DNA of 64,000 nt from Octopus vulgaris (taxonomy: Eukaryota): contig OX597822.1 of NCBI GenBank assembly GCA_951406725.2, forward strand, positions 16,182,001 through 16,246,000. Direction: 5' to 3'. Numbering within the stretch: the first letter of the stretch is position 1; the number at the start of each line of letters is the position of its first letter. This document shows, piece by piece, positions 9,452 through 57,629 of the stretch. Below the pieces are notes generated by a model. That model was not told where the DNA came from. It did not search any database and saw nothing but the letters and a program-made list of their open reading frames with translations. Made by a program: the position numbers and the translations under genes.

Positions 9452-9878
9452 TGGTCTAGCATATAGAAAAATCTGAAGATTCAGAAAAATTATATTACAT
9501 ACATATAAGGAGGATGACCACTAAGTGGACATCCATTATCCTAGAAGTCGACCCCCTATGGACATACCACTAAGAAAGGAATGTTCTCAAGAAAATTTAG
9601 CAAACGTCAGAACTTAAGTGAGCAGGACAAATGAAAAGATACAAAATATACAGACGAAACCGGGTTTGTGATTAATCTGTATATTTTGTATCTTTTCATT
9701 TGTCTTGCTCACTTGCGTTCTGACGTTTGCTAAATTTTCTTGAGAACAATCCTTTCTTAGTGGTAAGACTATAGGGGGTCAACTTCTAGGATAATGGATG
9801 TCCACTTAGTGGTCATCCCTCTTATATGTATGTAATATAATTTTTCTGAATCTTCAGATATTTCTATATGCTAGACCA
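9452..9878. repeat. Inverted repeat of about 203 bp (9452-9654 / 9676-9878), probable 5'-inverted PLE pLTR remnant
   Basis: Arms are near-exact reverse complements with a 21-bp spacer. Lies 5' (on the minus strand) of the 9093-9229 hammerhead. Confidence 0.85.
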
Positions 9879-21202: not shown

Positions 21203-22187
21203 AAATCGTATAGAATAACCGTATAGAGTTAGGTTCTCTTGTATTCACTCAAAAATCAAAACTCTAAAATATTTTAAATTGAAATCTGTAGGCTCTTCCA
21301 CTGGTGTTCTTTCTTTCTACCTGTACCTTTTAATTATAAAAATAAATAGTATTTGTACGATGCTAATTTAATTGTCTATATAGTCAATTTGATTAACCTA
21401 ACTTAAATCATATAAATGTTGATAATATTCCCTAATTCTATTCTAAATTTAATAAATAATACTATTCCCTTAAGGATACAAGTAATTTTCTCTATATACT
21501 TTGAATAAACAAACTTCTCCCGCCATTTACTATTGAACTTATTTGACCTCTAGATGTTGACCAAAATTCTTTCTTACAATATATACATATGTTAAAATAG
21601 AAACAATAATAAATAAATAACCTTCTATTCTAGTGTTACCGTTAACTTTCTTACTGTATCTTCCTCTACTGATAGCCTTTGACCCCTTTAATGTTTTCCT
21701 TTGATATCTCTGTATTCTTTATCCTACCATTAACTCTGTGAGGGTCTCAGTTCTTAGCAGGTGGTGGTCAAACTTAATGTTCCTTTATAAATCTAAGATT
21801 CCTTCAACACTGACCTAGATTTTCTGTCACCACAGAAATAAACTAACCTTTGTCTATGGTATATTTATGTCTTCTTACTCCTCTACTCCCTTCCTCCCAT
21901 TATGTCCTTTATTTGGGCTGAATCTGCTTCGCTGACTTTCTTGCTACTACAACCAAATTCTGTTTGCAACAGCTTAGTTGTGAAATGAACCGGTGTGTGA
22001 CCAGCAGCTTTCCTCATGTCACCTTCTCTGGGAAGTTAATCTTTTTAAAAACTTTTTATAAAACTGTGCATCATTAGAAAGCATTTTAAGTCTACTTATA
22101 ATTTGACTTTAAATTTCATAGAACTCACTCCTAATACTTCATGAGGATAATCAAACTATCTAGGATGTCTGGAAAACATATATGTGA

Positions 22188-22276
22188 TTTAGCTGATGAA
22201 TACTGGACATTTGTATTTGCTGCAATATTTGCAGCTTCAAATAAAATTGTTCTTAGTATGAAACAATTGTACTAAA
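22188..22276 (+). ncRNA. Type I hammerhead ribozyme motif (canonical core) in PLE 3' pLTR
   Basis: tttag-CTGATGA-atact..agtat-GAAA-caattg-TA-ctaaa. Stem III is palindromic. Lies about 1 kb downstream of the GIY-YIG remnant on the same strand. Confidence 0.8.
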
Positions 22277-25654: not shown

Positions 25655-26560
25655 TGAGGGTGAATCAAAAAAGTAATGCCATTTTGTTTAGGACAGGTAT
25701 AATTACCAACACAGGAACATGTATCATACATCAAAAGGAAGCTGGTCCTCTGAAGTTCACATCCCTACTTCTCAACATAGTCACCGTCTCTGTCAATAGC
25801 AATGTTCAACCTTCGAATGAGAGTATGTATCCCTGCCCCGCAAAATTCTGTTGACTGTTCTTTGAGCCACTTCCTCACTACAGTTTTCATTTCCTCGTCA
25901 CTGGAATAAGGTTTGCCTCAAAACCTCCTTCGTGGTGTTGTCTCTTTGACTTTGTTCGAGAAGTTCAATGCAGACATTGATCCTGTCAGTCTTGCTTTCG
26001 GTAGTCAGCTCTCAGTACCCAACGGGCACACAATTTTGAAAAGCCAAGTGATTCGACAATGTTGTAAGCACTTCCATGGTTCACTTCAAGGTTTTCTGCC
26101 AACTCATCAAGAGTTATGCGCCTGTCTTCTCTGATCAGAGCATTTGATTTTGCTTTATTGGCAGGATTCACAGAAGCGGATGGACGGACGGACGGCCAGA
26201 ACGGGGTTTATCGGCTGCACTCGCGGTTCCCAGCTTTTCATCTTTCAGACGGCGGACCCACCTGCATACATTGCCATAAGCTAAAGTATTGTCCTCAAAT
26301 ACATTTTGTAATCGTCGGAGAATGTCTACAATTGTTTCCCTCCAAGTAACAAGAAATTCCATCACTGCTCTTTGTGTTTGGCGTAACTCTAAAGGGGCAA
26401 CCATTTTGAATTTTCCTCACCAGTCTGAAAACCCGAAAAGTAAGAAACAAAATATTTCAGATTTTATAATCATTTATAGTTGGGAAAATTTTCAGTTATG
26501 TTTATAAAACAAAAATTCCCATGAAATAAAGAAAACGGCATTACTTTTTGACTCACCCTC
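25655..26560 (-). mobile_element. Internally deleted mariner DNA transposon
   Basis: TIRs GAGGGTGAATCAAAAAAGTAATGCC / GGCATTACTTTTTGACTCACCCTC with TA flanks. Frameshifted transposase pieces QRAVMEFL, DKPRSGRPS, IREDRRITLDELA, KLCARWV and C-terminal DGDYVEK. Most of the catalytic domain is missing. Confidence 0.9.
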
Positions 26561-29475: not shown

Positions 29476-34659
<5,184 letters not shown>

Positions 34660-34750
34660 GGGAATGTTACTTCCGAGTACACATGAAAAAGACATTCAAA
34701 TTAGATGTACTAAAATGAACATCACTCAATGTTTAATTCGTATATATATA

Positions 34751-35041
34751 AAGTAGTTTTAGAGACAGAACCACCTTCAACTCAATCAACACTGAAAGAT
34801 TTTATACCCGACCAGTCCATAACATGTTAAAAATCAAATCTTATACTAACTATATCTATTCTGAATCCCGTGTTTTCAGTTTATAAGACTACACGTGTTT
34901 CATGAAAGTACGTCATGAAACACGTGTAGTCTTATAAACTGAAAACACGGGATTCAGAATAGATATAGTTAGTATAAGATTTGATTTTTAACATTTTATG
35001 GACTGGTCGGGTATAAAACCTTTCAGTGTTGATTGAGTTGA

Positions 35042-35042
<1 letters not shown>
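34751..35042 (-). mobile_element. Fold-back PLE pLTR remnant: 130-bp palindrome (34776-34905 / 34913-35042) plus 25-bp tail, in (TA)n
   Basis: Near-perfect inverted repeat with a 7-nt spacer. Each arm carries the hammerhead 3' half GAAA-cacgtg-TA-gtct. TA arrays on both sides. Confidence 0.8.
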
Positions 35043-35097
<55 letters not shown>

Positions 35098-35156
35098 TTA
35101 TATACTTATATATATATATATCATATATATACTTATATATATATATATATATATAT

Positions 35157-35255
35157 CATCGACGTGTTACCTAGGTAGGCAAGGTAGGTAATGCCTACCT
35201 TGAATAAAATAGATCGATAGCAAAATGTATATATATATATATATATACTTATATA

Positions 35256-35288
<33 letters not shown>

Positions 35289-35296
35289 TATATATA

Positions 35297-35333
<37 letters not shown>

Positions 35334-35403
35334 TGGACGTGTTACCTAGGTAGGCAAGGTAAGTAATGCCTACCTTGAATAAAATAGATCGATAGCAAAA
35401 TGT
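35157..35403. repeat. Direct duplication of a unit of about 72 bp with adjoining TA tracts
   Basis: GACGTGTTACCTAGGTAGGCAAGGT..GATAGCAAAATGT at 35157-35228 and 35331-35403. Confidence 0.9.
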
Positions 35404-40800: not shown

Positions 40801-40886
<86 letters not shown>

Positions 40887-41044
40887 GTGTGTGTGATTGT
40901 GTATAGAAGAATATATTAATAAAAGGAATTCCAACCTTGTCTGATTTTCACGTTTTATTTACAATCTTATAATGATATATTATAAGATAATATATTATAA
41001 TAGAATAAAATAAAATAGTAGAATGTTAAATGTTCAATCTGATT

Positions 41045-41087
41045 GAACTAGTACTTTCATGCATTAAATTCTGCAATCTTCGGGTTC
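41045..41087 (-). ncRNA. Minimal type I hammerhead motif (U4C core) in 3' pLTR
   Basis: gaac-CCGAAGA-t-tgca-gaatttaa-tgca-t-GAAA-gtac-TA-gttc. Confidence 0.7.
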
Positions 41088-41589
41088 GTGTAGTAGTGGT
41101 GACAGTCATGCTTCACAATTTTTGGCTGTAGCAAGATGATTGATTCTGTGCTTTAAATACAGCTGGGTAGGCTCCAGAGTGCTAGGTTTTGCAAACTGTA
41201 TTCTGACCAATCAGTGTGTAGTATCACTCAATTACTTAAGCTGATTGATTGGTTGGTTGAGCTGATTGGTTTAGGCGTCACGCTTTGTTGGACATGTCAA
41301 GAGTCCTGTATCTTGACCCTGGCCGAAGCAGCAATTGTTGGGTTATTTTTAGAAATGTTGTAAATAGCCTTTGTCAGAGATTTTTATATTTTTATATTTC
41401 AATTCCCATCATCATCATTGTCAGCACCTTATTTATTGTTGCTAGTAGTGATGGTGGTGGCAATAGAACTTTTAACCCTGAATAAGATAATTTTCCTGCT
41501 ATCTTCATCTTGATCACCTTTAGTATTGTTGTTGTTGTTAGTGGTCATGGTCGTAGCAGTAGAAGTAGTACCTCTCAGTATTATTATTA

Positions 41590-44400
41590 TTATTGCTTAT
41601 TTAGCTCGGGTTCGAATTTATCAATAAAATTCTTTTCTCTGATTCTCCTCTCGATTTCATTTGGGCTGTGTAATTTGTAGAACGGAAATATTATATACAT
41701 TTTCCGGCCACATGTTGCTAGGTGGTTACTCAAAGGTATCTGACGGACCTCTGGGTCTCTAATCTGTTGTCGGTGTACACGTGAGCGTTCTAATAGTGCG
41801 TTTCCCGTCTGACCTACATATATTTCTTCACAATTTTGGCATTTGATGCAGTAAATTAAATTTCTGCTTTTGCAGTTCATATTCGCGTTTGTGAATATTT
41901 TCCCGGTTTTTGTGTTTATATATTGGCCGGTATGTATGAATTGGCATGTGCCACATCGGCTATCATTGCATTTAGATACAGTGAATGTTTGGTCTTTGTT
42001 GTTAAGGTCAAAGTTTGCCTTTGTTAGTAATTTTTTCAAGTTTTTAGGCTGTCTTTTACTAAGCACCATAGCTCGATCCGTGATTATGTCTTTTAATTCA
42101 TTACTTTGGGCAATGATTGGTAGGTTTGTTTTGGCAATGTTGAAGATATTCTGGTGACATGGGTTGTGTGTCACTATGAATGGTATGACTTGATCTTGTT
42201 TTCCTTTTCCTTGGGTTGTCCTAAGTTGTTGTATGGGTATTTTTATAGCCCGCTGTATGCCATTTTCTATAAGTAGAGATGGGTATTTTTGTTTGAGCAA
42301 AAATTCTTTTAGTTCTATTAGGCGTTTGTTCCTGATATTTGCATCTTCTACAATGGTACAAATTCTTCTGGCTAGGCAGTATGGGATGTTACGTTTTGTA
42401 TGTGGTGGATGGCACGACTTAAAATTTAGGTATTGATGTGTGTCTGTGTGTTTATAGTATATATCTGTGGTGATGGTGGTGTCTTTTTTAATTACCATTA
42501 TATCTAGGAATGGTAATTTGGTACTACTCATCTCCTTTGTAAATTGGAGAGATGGGTGTAGGTTGTTCAGGAGGATATTGAACTCTTCCAGAGTATTTAG
42601 AGATTCTGTCCAGATTATGAAGCAGTCGGCAAGGTATCTCTTCCATGCCTTTTCAATATACTTTCTAAATCCAGTGCCATAGTTTACCTCCCCCTTGGTA
42701 GAGTTGTTCTTCTAAGTATCCCATTACAGAGTTGGCGTAAACGGGAGCAAACCTCGTTCCCATCGCCGTGCCTCTAATTTGGATGTAATTCTTTCCATTG
42801 AAGAAGAATGTGTTGTTTTCTAGAATAAGTTTGACTGTGTCTAATATAAATGGCACTGTGAATCTGCTGGGAATCACTTCTCTATGTTTTTCTAACCAGT
42901 ATTTAATCGCCTTTATTCCTAAATCGTGTGGAATATTGGTGTAGAGGCTTACCACATCAAAACTTAGTAAAACTGAATTTGTTTCTGTTGTTTTGGGAAG
43001 ATGGGACAGGAAGTCGATGTCATCCCTGATGAAACTGGGTATGTAAGTACATAGTGGTTTCAAAACAATGTCAATAAAATTGCTTAGACGGTGGGTAGGG
43101 CATGCTGGATCAGCTATAATACATCTCTTTTGGATGTAGTAATTTTATGTACTCACTTTCTTGTTCTTTTACTGCCTGTTGAATATCTTTTGATTTGTGT
43201 ATTTTTGGTAAGCCGTAGAAGTTGCTGGGTTTTGGTTCGAAATTGGTGATGTAGTCTCTTTCATTATCCGTAAGTGAGTTGTAGTGTGTTGAGATCAGGT
43301 TGTTGATCTTTTTCATGATGTGGTGGTCTATATTTGCGGGTATTTCACAATAGAAGGTTGTATCCTTCAGTTGGTCCTCAACCAAATCCTTATAGTATTC
43401 GGTATCCATAATAACAATTGCACCACCTTTATCTGCTTGTTTAATTATTATGGTTTGATCGTTTTATATACGTTTACATGCAGACATCTCTGATTTGCTA
43501 ATGTTTGGCCTAACATTGGTATTGCGTCTAAGGGGAAATTTAGACAGGATATCAATGTATTGATCAAGGTAGTTATTTCTTCCTTTTGGTGGGGTGAAAT
43601 TTGATTTATTCCTTACTAGAGATTCATCAATCTCATTACTTTTGTTAGCGAAGAATTCTACAAGTCGTAATTTTCGACACAATTTTTGGATATCCTCCTT
43701 TAATTCTTGGTGGTTGGCTGTTGGTGTAGGTGTGAATTTCAGTCCCTTTGACAGAAGTTGGATTTCATCATTGTCAAGATCTCTTTTTGATAAATTAATT
43801 ATTTTAGGATCTATACGTTCAGTTGTTTGGGGTATGTTTCCTCTTCAATTTTTTCTTTCTCCGGTGTTTGTTGTCCTGACGTAAAAAAATGGATTTTTTT
43901 CTGTTTAAGATTTATATTCAGTTGATGTTTGCTTGATGTTTTGGCTGTGGTATTTTACTTGGTTTCGTTATGTTTTCTGTCTTGTTTTTGGTTTTAATGT
44001 ATGCTACTTTTCAATTTCTTGTTAGCATTGTTTTTAACCACCTGGAGAAATGATCTGGGTTTACTTCTAGATCTAGATCGGTTTTTTGTCCACTTTCTTG
44101 TGGGTAATCTCTGTTGAGGTCTTGAAAATGATCTGTTATTTCTACTGCTAATGGTCTGTTCAAAAGAATATCTATTTTGTTTGTGCTTTTTGTTCATGTT
44201 GTGTGCATTAGGGTGTTTGCATACAAAAAGGGAAGAGTTCTTACCGTAGTTCGTCTTCGATTCGTGGTGAAACGGGTGTTCATGTTGCCACGTGTTCTGG
44301 TGTATGTTGCGTTGGTGAGGTTGTCCACTTTTAATACTATTTCTCGGAGTTCTGGTGTCTTTACCGTAATTTATAGCATATTTATCGAGAAATAATTGTT
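41590..44400 (-). pseudogene. Frameshifted PLE reverse transcriptase / GIY-YIG endonuclease ORF
   Basis: Pieces ADKGGAIV, FYGLPKIHK, SFDVVSLYTNIPH, QIRGTAMGTRFAP, WKRYLADCF (YxDD changed to YLAD) and LPFLD. Cys-rich linker CNDSRCGTC, then NLIYCIKC..IYVGQTG..ERSRVH..E..PELN. The C-terminal 313 aa (41590-42531) is open. Confidence 0.92.
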
Positions 44401-44544
44401 TCCTCTGTCAAAAATATAAAAATCTCTGACAAAGGCTATTTACAACATTTCTAACAATAACCCAACAATTGCTGCTACGACCAGGGTCAAGATACAGGAC
44501 TCTTGACATGTCCAACAAAGCGTGACGCCTAAACCATTCAGCTC

Positions 44545-44650
44545 AACCAACCAATCAGCTTAAGTAATTGAGTGATACTACACACTGATTGGTCAGAATA
44601 CAGTTTGCAAAACCTAGTACTCTGGAGCCTACCCAGCTGTATTTAAAGCG
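44545..44650 (+). promoter_or_regulatory. Putative pLTR promoter (CCAAT boxes and TATTTAAA) upstream of the hammerhead
   Basis: CCAATCAG at about 44551, reverse CTGATTGG at about 44585, TATTTAAA at about 44640. Mirrored in the left pLTR. Function is inferred only. Confidence 0.3.
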
Positions 44651-44710
44651 CAGAATCAATCATCTTGCTACAGTCAAAAATTGTGAAGCATGACTGTCAC
44701 CACTACTACA

Positions 44711-44755
44711 TGAACCCGAAGATTGCAGAATTTAATGCATGAAAGTACTAGTTCA
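44711..44755 (+). ncRNA. Minimal type I hammerhead motif (U4C core) in inverted 5' pLTR
   Basis: tgaac-CCGAAGA-ttgcagaatttaatgcat-GAAA-gtac-TA-gttca. Confidence 0.7.
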
Positions 44756-44912
44756 ATCAGATTGAACATTTAACATTCTACTATTTTATTTTATTCTATT
44801 ATAATATATTATCTTATAATATATCATTATAAGATTGTAAATAAAACGTGAAAATCAGACAAGGTTGGAATTCCTTTTATTAATATATTATTCTATACAC
44901 AATCACACACAC

Positions 44913-44962
<50 letters not shown>

Positions 44963-44964
<2 letters not shown>

Positions 44965-45241: not shown

Positions 45242-45288
<47 letters not shown>

Positions 45289-45463
45289 GTTTAAATATTT
45301 GTTGTGCAAGATTGTTTATGTGAAGTCGTGTGTTGAAACAGATATTGTTATATTTCGGAATGGTCATATTGCCAGTTTAGCCAATAAAAACACACGCACT
45401 ATATATTTGGTGTTATTTTGCTTCAGTGATATTTATTTTTTACATTAATCTTAATCTTATTTC

Positions 45464-45508
45464 GGCCAAAGTTCTTTCGTCACACTCCTGTGACCGCATC
45501 AGTGGTCC
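45464..45508 (-). ncRNA. Hammerhead-like motif (A9C core) in 3' pLTR
   Basis: ggacca-CTGATGC-g-gtcac-aggagt-gtgac-GAAA-gaac-TT-tggcc. Confidence 0.55.
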
Positions 45509-46008
45509 TTTGTTTTCTTCTCACTTACTTGTGTCTCTCCTTACTAACCGTCAGCCATTTTATATTTCTATTGTATGTCTTCATTTGCGCATGTTTATAT
45601 CTCTATGTGCGTCTATGTTTATTTAGTGTGTGTGTGGGGGGGATGCCTGTAATATTTGTATCTTCTGGTTATATACATTCTTGTAATTTGTATTTTGTTT
45701 TTGTTGTTGTTGCTTTTGTTCTAATTTTGTTCATGTGTTTACATCCACCCATTATTATCATTACATATGCTTGTATGTATGTATAACAACAATATTAGTA
45801 ATAATAATAATAAATCTAATCGGAAAAAAAAAAAAAAAAAAAAGAATATACATATACATATATATATATACATACACATACATATACATATATATATATA
45901 TACATATACACACACATATATACACATATACATATACATATATATAGATATTCATTTCTATTTCTTTAATTACCTGTGTATTTATTATGTTTGCAGGATC
46001 CACTATTG

Positions 46009-46812
46009 TCATATGTTGTGGTGTGCGCTATTGCTCCATTCTAGTTTTCTATTCAGGCTAGGTTTATTTTCTATTATATGTGTAGCTTCTGTAATTTGTC
46101 TAATTGTTGCATCTGTTCTATGTGTGGACAATATCTTAATCTCTATGTTATTGATTGATCCCCCGTGTTCTTGTTCGGCGTGTTGGTACAGAATCGATGA
46201 GCTTTTACCTTCCTTGAGTTGTCTCCAATGTTCATTCACCCGCTCACCAATGCTTCTTGCAGTTTCCCCTACGTATGTTACTGTCTTGTTACTGCATCGT
46301 CCCTCTATACATCTTATACTATAGACCACATTTCTGGCTTTACAGTTCGTTTGTGGGCTAAATCTACATACAGTGCAATAGTTATCCGTACAGAGAGTTC
46401 TACTAAAAGGATAGCTTCTACCAATTATAGATCTGATAGGGTTGCCTGGCTTTTCAACAACCTTAATTCTTAGTTTAAGTTTATCTAGGGTCCTTCTAAA
46501 GCGGTACGCTAGTTCACCTCCAGGGGTGGTGTCAACGAACATGACACTCTGGTATTTATGGCTATCATACCAAGAGTTGGCCTTCCCTATTTTCTTTTTT
46601 GTCCTTTCTATAGTGTTCCATGACTTGTTCCTATAGAGTGGGCAAATCCCATTCCTATCATTACATAATATATTATCAAATTTCTTCATGGCTCCTTTGT
46701 ATACTCTGATCCTTTCTTTATGGCTGTAACCTGAGAACTGCATGCGGTGAATGAAGTACTGTATGTGTCTTTTTAATTCTGTAGGCTCGCACATGCGTGA
46801 CACATTTCTCAT
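46009..46812 (-). CDS. PLE thumb/linker plus GIY-YIG endonuclease (5'-truncated ORF, possibly Hydra-like clade)
   Basis: SGYS, PLYR, VMFVDTTPGGELA, CTDNYCTVC, NVVYSIRC..TYVGETARSIGERVNEH, RQITEA, LNRK. RT core is absent. The clade assignment is from memory. Confidence 0.85.
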   Translation of the reverse strand: MRNVSRMCEPTELKRHIQYFIHRMQFSGYSHKERIRVYKGAMKKFDNILCNDRNGICPLYRNKSWNTIERTKKKIGKANSWYDSHKYQSVMFVDTTPGGELAYRFRRTLDKLKLRIKVVEKPGNPIRSIIGRSYPFSRTLCTDNYCTVCRFSPQTNCKARNVVYSIRCIEGRCSNKTVTYVGETARSIGERVNEHWRQLKEGKSSSILYQHAEQEHGGSINNIEIKILSTHRTDATIRQITEATHIIENKPSLNRKLEWSNSAHHNI

Positions 46813-47163
46813 TATTCTGAAGTTATATCAGAATGAGATTTTTTTTTTTTCCATTAGATTTATTATTATTATTACTAATATTGTTGTTATACATACATAC
46901 AAGCATATGTAATGATAATAATGGGTGGATGTAAACACATGAACAAAATTAGAACAAAAGCAACAACAACAAAAACAAAATACAAATTACAAGAATGTAT
47001 ATAACCAGAAGATACAAATATTACAGGCATCCCCCCACACACACACTAAATAAACATAGACGCACATAGAGATATAAACATGCGCAAATGAAGACATACA
47101 ATAGAAATATAAAATGGCTGACGGTTAGTAAGGAGAGACACAAGTAAGTGAGAAGAAAACAAA

Positions 47164-47208
47164 GGACCACTGATGCGGTCACAGGAGTGTGACGAAAGAA
47201 CTTTGGCC
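47164..47208 (+). ncRNA. Hammerhead-like motif (A9C core) in inverted 5' pLTR
   Basis: Identical to the 45464-45508 copy. Confidence 0.55.
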
Positions 47209-47322
47209 GAAATAAGATTAAGATTAATGTAAAAAATAAATATCACTGAAGCAAAATAACACCAAATATATAGTGCGTGTGTTTTTATTGGCTAAACTGG
47301 CAATATGACCATTCCGAAATAT

Positions 47323-47403
<81 letters not shown>

Positions 47404-47419
47404 ATATATACATACATCC

Positions 47420-57584: not shown

Positions 57585-57629
57585 CGTGCGCTGACGACGG
57601 ATAAATACTCAGAAACCCGGGTCAGTGCG
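57585..57629 (+). ncRNA. Minimal type I hammerhead motif (canonical core, decayed stems)
   Basis: cgtgcg-CTGACGA-cggataaatactca-GAAA-cccggg-TC-agtgcg. Palindromic ACCCGGGT stem III and a GUC cleavage triplet. Confidence 0.55.

What the first reader, a model, noticed from the sequence alone, without database searches (positions are those of the whole stretch)
34751..35042. 130-bp palindrome whose axis lies inside hammerhead stem II
Seen: near-perfect arms meet at TCATGA-aagtacg-TCATGA, and each arm reads outward cat-GAAA-cacgtg-TA-gtct, the 3' half of a type I hammerhead. The CUGANGA half is absent. Only the left arm has a 25-nt tail, and both ends sit in (TA)n. Inference: the cDNA folded back on the ribozyme's own stem II hairpin and self-primed copy-back synthesis, which would explain inverted pLTRs mechanistically.
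Basis: partly seen in the sequence, partly recalled or inferred. Interest (0 to 1): 0.7.

Follow-up and report, generated by a model that had tools for sequence, protein, structure and literature searches.

The report
Truncated Penelope-type insertion with mirrored arm
The palindrome is in the sequence, but its central hairpin does not exist in other copies of this repeat and was made by the inversion itself, so this is most likely an ordinary stump of a Penelope-type jumping gene, not evidence that the ribozyme's own hairpin primes the mirror copy.

Summary
The 130-bp palindrome is in the window (2 mismatches, 7-nt loop). Contigs of four public runs show the arm is a high-copy repeat. Other copies follow the left arm through the loop and then leave it (46 of 48 contigs in the listed loose ends at 34910-34915). 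So the left arm is the original, the right arm is a copy, and only 2 bp (GA/TC) of the supposed stem II pre-existed. The ribozyme 3' half is probably genuine: it resembles published Penelope hammerheads, and a complete hammerhead of the same build with a 60-nt stem II arm lies at 22193. No CUGANGA lies in the 44 nt visible upstream; a longer arm is possible but unseen. Three other family inversions have arm ends 37-165 nt apart, not hairpins. Best reading: a 5'-truncated Penelope-like insertion whose cDNA stalled, joined through 2-nt microhomology, and was likely bridged to a second, tail-less cDNA. Inverted arm, tail, (TA)n target and self-priming are published. The scan noted similar palindromes in other genomes. 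No listed contig spans this axis.

The parts
34776..34905 (-). Left arm: the original copy of a high-copy repeat (element sense is the minus strand), 5'-truncated
   Evidence: 173-310 contigs laid per run on 34662-34945, family follows this arm through the loop
34906..34912 (-). 7-nt loop: natural family sequence of the left (original) copy
   Evidence: loose ends start only at 34910-34915
34913..34914 (+). 2-nt microhomology (TC, pairs with GA at 34904-34905): last family bases and first bases of the mirrored arm
   Evidence: Window sequence plus loose ends; for energy
34913..35042 (+). Right arm: inverted copy, lacks the tail, ends against TA repeats
34751..34775 (-). 25-nt tail on the original arm only; 34750/34751 is a common family end in TA-rich flanks
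   Evidence: 47 contigs in 6 of the 24 listed loose-end rows (of 199) end there with unlike flanks
34662..34750 (-). Further repeat segment, with (TA)5 at 34741-34750, joined to the element in a minority of copies; abuts (CTT)13(TTA)26 at 34545-34659
   Evidence: tables 2, 7, 8
34890..34901 (-). Probable 3' half of a type I hammerhead: GAAA, palindromic stem III, GUA site (mirrored at 34917-34928 on +)
   Evidence: 5' half not seen
34902..34910 (-). Predicted 3' strand of the basal stem II of a long-armed hammerhead (inferred)
   Evidence: 6 of 7 complementary letters at the far end of the loose end; 4.8% of random window 31-mers do as well
35045..35331 (.). TA-rich target tract

Best explanation
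This is a 130-bp palindrome whose left arm is a copy of a high-copy repeat and whose right arm mirrors it across a 2-base match, likely left by one insertion of a Penelope-like retroelement whose reverse transcriptase stalled early. Shown: the left arm plus loop is family sequence, the right arm is the added copy, the pre-existing inverted match is 2 bp, the tail is one-sided, and the family has a common end in TA repeats. Inferred: the enzyme nicked a TA tract and copied about 165 nt or more of RNA from the outer start site; it stalled 13 nt 5' of the hammerhead's GAAA, likely inside a long stem II arm; the free cDNA end snapped back by GA/TC across 7 nt and was extended; the extension then likely annealed to a second cDNA primed at the opposite nick from the inner start site, which is why the right arm stops 25 nt short. 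The ribozyme structure would act, at most, as a stall site, not as the primer. Odds: Penelope-type insertion about 0.85; this two-cDNA route about 0.45; long-armed hammerhead present in the family about 0.55.
For: Family continuation: 10 of 11 listed loose-end rows behind 34910-34915 (46 of 48 contigs, all 4 runs, 3 organisms) share one sequence unlike the right arm (24 of 199 rows shown). Common 3' end: 47 contigs end at 34750/34751 in unlike TA-rich flanks. Variable inversion points: 3 of 5 listed joints change strand, at 34745/34910 (3 of 4 runs), 34792/34894 (5-nt microhomology) and 34768/34805; offsets 165, 102, 37 nt. Two larger elements in the window with GIY-YIG matches have inverted arms that are their 3'-terminal 560-570 bp, joined far from the mirrored point and 306 and 331 nt from their hammerhead-like cores; plain copy-back cannot make those. 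One has a short hairpin at its junction (-6.2 kcal/mol) and a tail on one arm only. In vitro a Penelope protein nicks and extends both strands and starts at two sites that bound the tail (PMC11167929). The right arm carries the family-majority base at the 34823 mirror and a common family allele (11-26% of depth) at the 34799 mirror.
Against: No RT or endonuclease frame was linked to this family; the 253 window bases are closed in all six frames. Both arms share four alleles that are rare in the laid runs (34815, 34835, 34872, 34878), and the spacer is only 7 nt; both fit single-template copy-back at least as well. The 5' half of the hammerhead was not seen. The second start site at 34775/34776 is not among the 24 listed loose-end rows. 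No listed contig spans the axis; two runs have no depth from 34922 on. The runs hold at most 61% of the words of 33860-35045, so they may be other species or individuals.
Confidence: 0.55

Rival explanations
1. Pure snap-back: one cDNA stalled, folded back on the 2-nt match and copied itself; the arm was later cut 25 nt short by the element's endonuclease.
For: 7-nt spacer; four rare alleles shared by both arms; self-priming proposed for junction palindromes (PMC3846280); second palindrome in the window with a 21-nt loop.
Against: The 2-bp hairpin is unfavourable (+1.7 kcal/mol); 5 of the 7 inverted junctions seen (3 family joints, 2 large elements) are not mirror images at the junction; one arm difference matches a common family allele.
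Confidence: 0.25
2. One reading: the cDNA folded on the ribozyme's own short stem II hairpin (ATGA/TCAT round a 7-nt loop).
For: The axis is 4-13 nt from a probable hammerhead 3' half; 2 of the 3 other family inversion joints (34910, 34894) and the second window palindrome (junction 9654, GAAA at 9656) also lie near such a motif.
Against: Other copies lack the 5' strand of that hairpin and show no CUGANGA in the 44 nt upstream (read by eye). 175 loose-end rows were not shown, so a minor subfamily with the hairpin is not excluded.
Confidence: 0.04
3. DNA-level event after insertion (replication template switch or break repair) mirrored an older, already diverged copy.
For: Both arms share alleles rare in the laid runs.
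Against: The right arm stops 25 nt inside the element and abuts TA repeats instead of running into flank; the same one-sided tail is seen on the element at 45242-47410.
Confidence: 0.07
4. Assembly or library fold-back artefact.
For: No listed contig spans the axis.
Against: Arms differ at 2 sites, each matching a family allele; the outer flanks are unlike; head-to-head joints of this family occur in independent runs.
Confidence: 0.05
5. Palindromic MITE or foldback DNA transposon that moves as a unit.
For: Short, non-coding, TA target.
Against: Family copies leave the palindrome at the axis, ends are asymmetric, and inversion points vary.
Confidence: 0.04

Closest known systems
Insertion units of endonuclease-positive Penelope-like elements (Craig et al. 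2021 PMC8557442; Arkhipova et al. 2013 PMC3846280; passages read)
   Same: 5' truncation, adjacent inverted 5'-truncated copy, tail at one end only, (TA)n target, palindrome at the inverted junction read as self-priming, TATATATA inside the terminal repeat.
   Different: Tail is 25 nt against the published 30-40; unit is a stump with no ORF; clade not determined.
Hydra-clade PLE hammerheads (PMC8557442 File S2)
   Same: 3' halves such as 'tgaa acac a gtgt t' (Hydra-1_cRog; 'gaa acac a gtgt t' in Penelope-17_HM) match the finding's TGAA ACAC GTGT A; (TA)n insertion.
   Different: Listed Hydra loops II are 3-10 nt; here no core lies within 44 nt, so stem II would have to be a long arm, as in PLE-X1_sMoe and PLE-X1_sTam (about 30-nt loops, same file) and the motif at window 22193.
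Poseidon element PAc in vitro (Frangieh et al. 2024 PMC11167929, parts 1-2 of 4 read)
   Same: Two reverse-transcription starts that bound the tail, both strands nicked and extended, AT-rich targets; hammerhead cleavage not needed for insertion.
   Different: PAc's ORF starts at stem II; here the ATG at that place closes after 4 codons. The parts read do not treat inversions.
Twin priming of LINE-1 (recalled, not read here)
   Same: Two primed cDNAs joined by microhomology give a 5' inversion.
   Different: L1 segments do not overlap; here the arms are the same 130 bp, which needs two templates or a tandem RNA.

Membership tests
EN+ Penelope-like element | ORF with telomerase-like RT and GIY-YIG endonuclease | not testable with these tools
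   Stump has no ORF; no genome held; no long family copy found
EN+ Penelope-like element | Inverted 5'-truncated copy next to the 5' end | tested here: met
EN+ Penelope-like element | Tail at one end only (30-40 bp published) | tested here: met
   25 nt, slightly short
EN+ Penelope-like element | Dispersed copies with a common 3' end, in (TA)n for several clades | tested here: met
   47 contigs end at 34750/34751 in unlike TA-rich flanks
EN+ Penelope-like element | Partial tandem arrangement (pLTR) | tested here: inconclusive
   Two contigs go back from 34867 to 34725 or 34751 with letters between (table 5c); none at this locus
EN+ Penelope-like element | Target-site duplication | tested here: inconclusive
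   Hidden by TA repeats
Type I hammerhead | GAAA, stem III, NUH site | tested here: met
   GAAAC + 4-nt palindrome + GTH: 5 hits at 4 places in the window against a mean of 0.44 in 100 shuffles (pattern chosen after seeing it)
Type I hammerhead | CUGANGA core directly before a short stem II | tested here: not met
   None at the locus or in the 44 nt upstream in other copies
Type I hammerhead | CUGANGA and stem I partner further upstream (long stem II arm) | not testable with these tools
   Loose ends are cut at 30 letters; 6 of 7 pairing hint, chance 4.8%
Type I hammerhead | Self-cleavage | not testable with these tools
   Needs an in vitro assay
MITE / foldback DNA transposon | Copies share the inverted structure and symmetric ends | tested here: not met
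   family leaves the palindrome at the axis; joints vary

The most novel reading that the evidence does not exclude
These animals carry Penelope hammerheads with an unusually long stem II arm (one complete example with a 60-nt arm at window 22193), and that arm is a stall site that sets where cDNAs end and invert: this locus (34914), two other family joints (34910, 34894) and a second palindrome (9654) all turn within about 15 nt of a hammerhead GAAA. The ribozyme fold would then shape insertion size and inversion without cleaving.
Probability: 0.2. Interest if true: 0.5.

Novelty: new member of a known kind. Interest (0 to 1): 0.2.

Why it matters
As one locus it matters little: the architecture and the self-priming idea are in print. 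How Penelope elements make inverted ends and what their hammerheads do are still open (PMC8557442), so a genome-wide excess of inversion points inside a long stem II arm would give a testable, cleavage-independent role. The case also shows a trap: every palindrome axis looks like a stem, so a hairpin at the axis must be checked against uninverted copies.

Tried and rejected
No whole genome held. No second copy of the arm in the window and no match to a 21-letter motif of the family's upstream part. No exact match in metagenome contigs, prokaryote genomes (33, 59) or viral contigs (34). No RNA holder listed; this says nothing on expression. Rfam: no hammerhead; the microRNA matches are below gathering score and reflect any long hairpin. 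A core variant CCGACGT 8 nt before the GAAA was rejected: no stem II and no stem I partner. A second candidate 3' half in the loose end (GAAAC, a 7-bp hairpin, ATC) was considered; it has a C-A mismatch at the first stem III pair and its 5' half is unseen, so I rank it below the long-arm reading but cannot exclude it. Alignment of the finding with the 22193 motif shows likeness only around the core. Family motifs were not found in paper texts or in the supplement of PMC8557442 (three window motifs, long lines are cut there). Searches for a printed link of stem II to inversion points showed none in their listings; most subscription papers are not searched. A loose 3'-half pattern is common (83 in the window, mean 64 in 20 shuffles), so only the strict form counts. 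The natural junction was not folded as one piece; it was read by eye. The organism was not identified: one search gives only eukaryotes; a likeness to octopus repeats is recalled and untested.

Full report
Observation. The window holds arms at 34776-34905 and 34913-35042, complementary at 128 of 130 positions round a 7-nt loop, with 25 further bases on the left arm only. GAAACACGTGTA reads outward on both arms and no CTGANGA...GAAA pattern covers the locus. The arm has no second copy in the window. The window is AT-rich, microsatellite-rich eukaryotic DNA; no genome is held.

Family evidence. Twenty of 24 listed public runs hold part of 33860-35045, at most 61% of its words. I laid 4 of them (3 organisms, contigs only) on 34662-34945; 173-310 contigs per run fit. 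Of 199 loose-end rows 24 are shown. Eleven lie behind 34910-34915; ten of them (46 of 48 contigs, all four runs) share one continuation that begins GGTATTG on the plus strand, whereas the window goes on ATGAAAC. So the family runs along the left arm and through the loop, and the right arm is the added copy. The only inverted match that pre-existed across the loop is GA (34904-34905) with TC (34913-34914), plus a possible G-T wobble. As DNA this 2-bp hairpin costs +1.7 kcal/mol, against -7.3 for 26 bases of the finished palindrome centre. Six rows (47 contigs) end at 34750/34751 in unlike TA-rich flanks, which marks the common 3' end. At least 8 of 32 listed pieces (of 1059) run on through the (TA)5 into 34662-34750, so the left boundary at this locus may lie near 34660, beside (CTT)13(TTA)26.

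Other inversions. Three of 5 listed joints change strand: 34745/34910 (3 of 4 runs, at about single-locus depth, so probably one shared locus), 34792/34894 (5 letters fit both sides) and 34768/34805. Their two ends are 165, 102 and 37 nt apart, so none is a short hairpin. The table does not state which ends meet; side lengths (56 in one run) require head-to-head for the first, and I read the others the same way. In the window, two larger elements with GIY-YIG matches (one above, one below the Pfam cut-off) carry inverted arms of about 560-570 bp in TA repeats. Their junctions lie 306 and 331 nt from their hammerhead-like cores, and the arms mirror the 3' end, not the junction. One has a short hairpin at the junction and a tail on one arm. 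A second small palindrome (9452-9878; 192 of 203 aligned arm positions alike, 21-nt loop) turns 2 nt before GAAACCGGGTT; its family was not examined.

Is the ribozyme half real? Probably. The loose pattern is common (83 against 64 in shuffles), but GAAAC plus a 4-nt palindrome plus GTH occurs at 4 places against 0.44 hits in shuffles (chosen after the fact), and it matches Hydra-clade Penelope hammerheads in File S2 of PMC8557442. No CUGANGA lies in the 44 nt visible upstream. Those bases hold a perfect 7-bp hairpin and end in seven letters of which six pair with 34904-34910, in the register a basal stem II would need; 4.8% of 20,000 random window 31-mers do as well. A complete hammerhead with a palindromic stem III, a GUA site and a 60-nt stem II arm with a nested hairpin lies at 22193 (1 of 60 shuffles gives such a hit; fold z -2.3, though the lowest-energy fold is not the hammerhead fold). 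By analogy the core of this family may lie just past what the tool shows. If so, the axis is inside the stem II domain, as the title says, but in an unpaired stretch of a long arm and not at a hairpin loop. This is inferred, about 0.55.

Mechanism. Shown: original and copy, 2-nt microhomology, one-sided tail, TA target, variable inversion points. Inferred: target-primed reverse transcription, a stall 13 nt 5' of the GAAA, snap-back on two bases, then either copy-back along the same cDNA (0.25) or annealing of the short extension to a second cDNA started at the inner site on the opposite nick (0.45). For two cDNAs: the arm stops 25 nt short; 5 of 7 junctions seen are not mirror images at the junction; a Penelope protein in vitro extends both nicked strands from two starts that bound the tail (PMC11167929); both arm differences fall on family alleles. 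Against: the arms share four alleles that are rare in the laid runs (40 of 50 variant rows shown), the spacer is short, and the inner start site is not among the listed loose ends. An artefact is unlikely but not excluded, as no listed piece spans the axis.

Is there a hot spot? Leaving this locus out, 2 of 3 family joints (34910, 34894) fall in the 25 nt round the motif. The stretch laid ends near there, joints need about 30 letters a side, and three events are too few. It is a hint only; an earlier unchecked note on another genome (e1-9850483) calls such a preference mild.

Comparison. Inverted 5'-truncated copy, one-sided tail and (TA)n bias are described for Penelope-like elements (PMC8557442: passages, section 11, one of 59 supplement parts and two supplement searches). 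Junction palindromes were read as self-priming in 2013 (PMC3846280, passages). Hammerhead pairs on opposite strands 100-700 bp apart were noted in 2014 (PMC4209133, parts 1-2 of 4). I also saw passages of PMC8969392 and part 1 of 5 of bioRxiv 10.64898/2026.07.22.740005 (its supplements are closed and may list related motifs). L1 twin priming is recalled. It works like a Penelope insertion; membership is not proven because no coding copy was reached, and a non-autonomous derivative is possible.

Verdict. Real feature, known kind; the specific hairpin-priming claim is not supported. Interest 0.2. The open lead is the long-armed hammerhead as a stall site (probability 0.2, interest 0.5 if true).

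Noticed in passing
window 22185-22276 (+): Complete type I hammerhead-like motif: 5-bp stem I, CTGATGA core, 60-nt stem II arm with nested hairpin, palindromic stem III, GUA site; missed by Rfam at gathering score.
   Followed up: partly
window 40836-44963: Near full-length Penelope-like element (RT and GIY-YIG pieces on minus strand, frames broken) with 558-bp inverted arms in (AT)n, no tail; each arm has a hammerhead-like motif with a CCGAAGA core (41083 minus, 44716 plus).
   Followed up: partly
window 45242-47410: 5'-truncated Penelope-like element with about 570-bp inverted arms, a tail of about 55 nt on the sense arm only, a short hairpin at the junction, and a hammerhead-like motif with a CTGATGC core in each arm.
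   Followed up: partly
window 9452-9878: Second palindrome, about 203-bp arms 95% alike, 21-nt loop that starts with a hammerhead-3'-half-like CGAAACCGGGTT; family not examined.
   Followed up: partly
window 29816-33766 (-): Open 1316-aa frame with RVT_1 and a weak zf-RVT match: a young non-LTR retrotransposon about 1 kb from the finding.
   Followed up: no
window 57591-57625 (+) and 26327-26338 (-): Further GAAAC-palindrome-GTH motifs; 57591 has a CTGACGA upstream but no stem I partner, 26338 has no core.
   Followed up: no
window 34725-34867: Contigs of two organisms return from 34867 to 34725 or 34751 with 10 or 35 letters between: a tandem unit of about 150 bp that omits the ribozyme motif. 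One piece (X15 record 6) aligns 34752-34933 with 15 gaps and is unexplained.
   Followed up: no
window 35049-35403: 175-bp direct duplication of TA tract plus about 70 unique bases just right of the palindrome.
   Followed up: no
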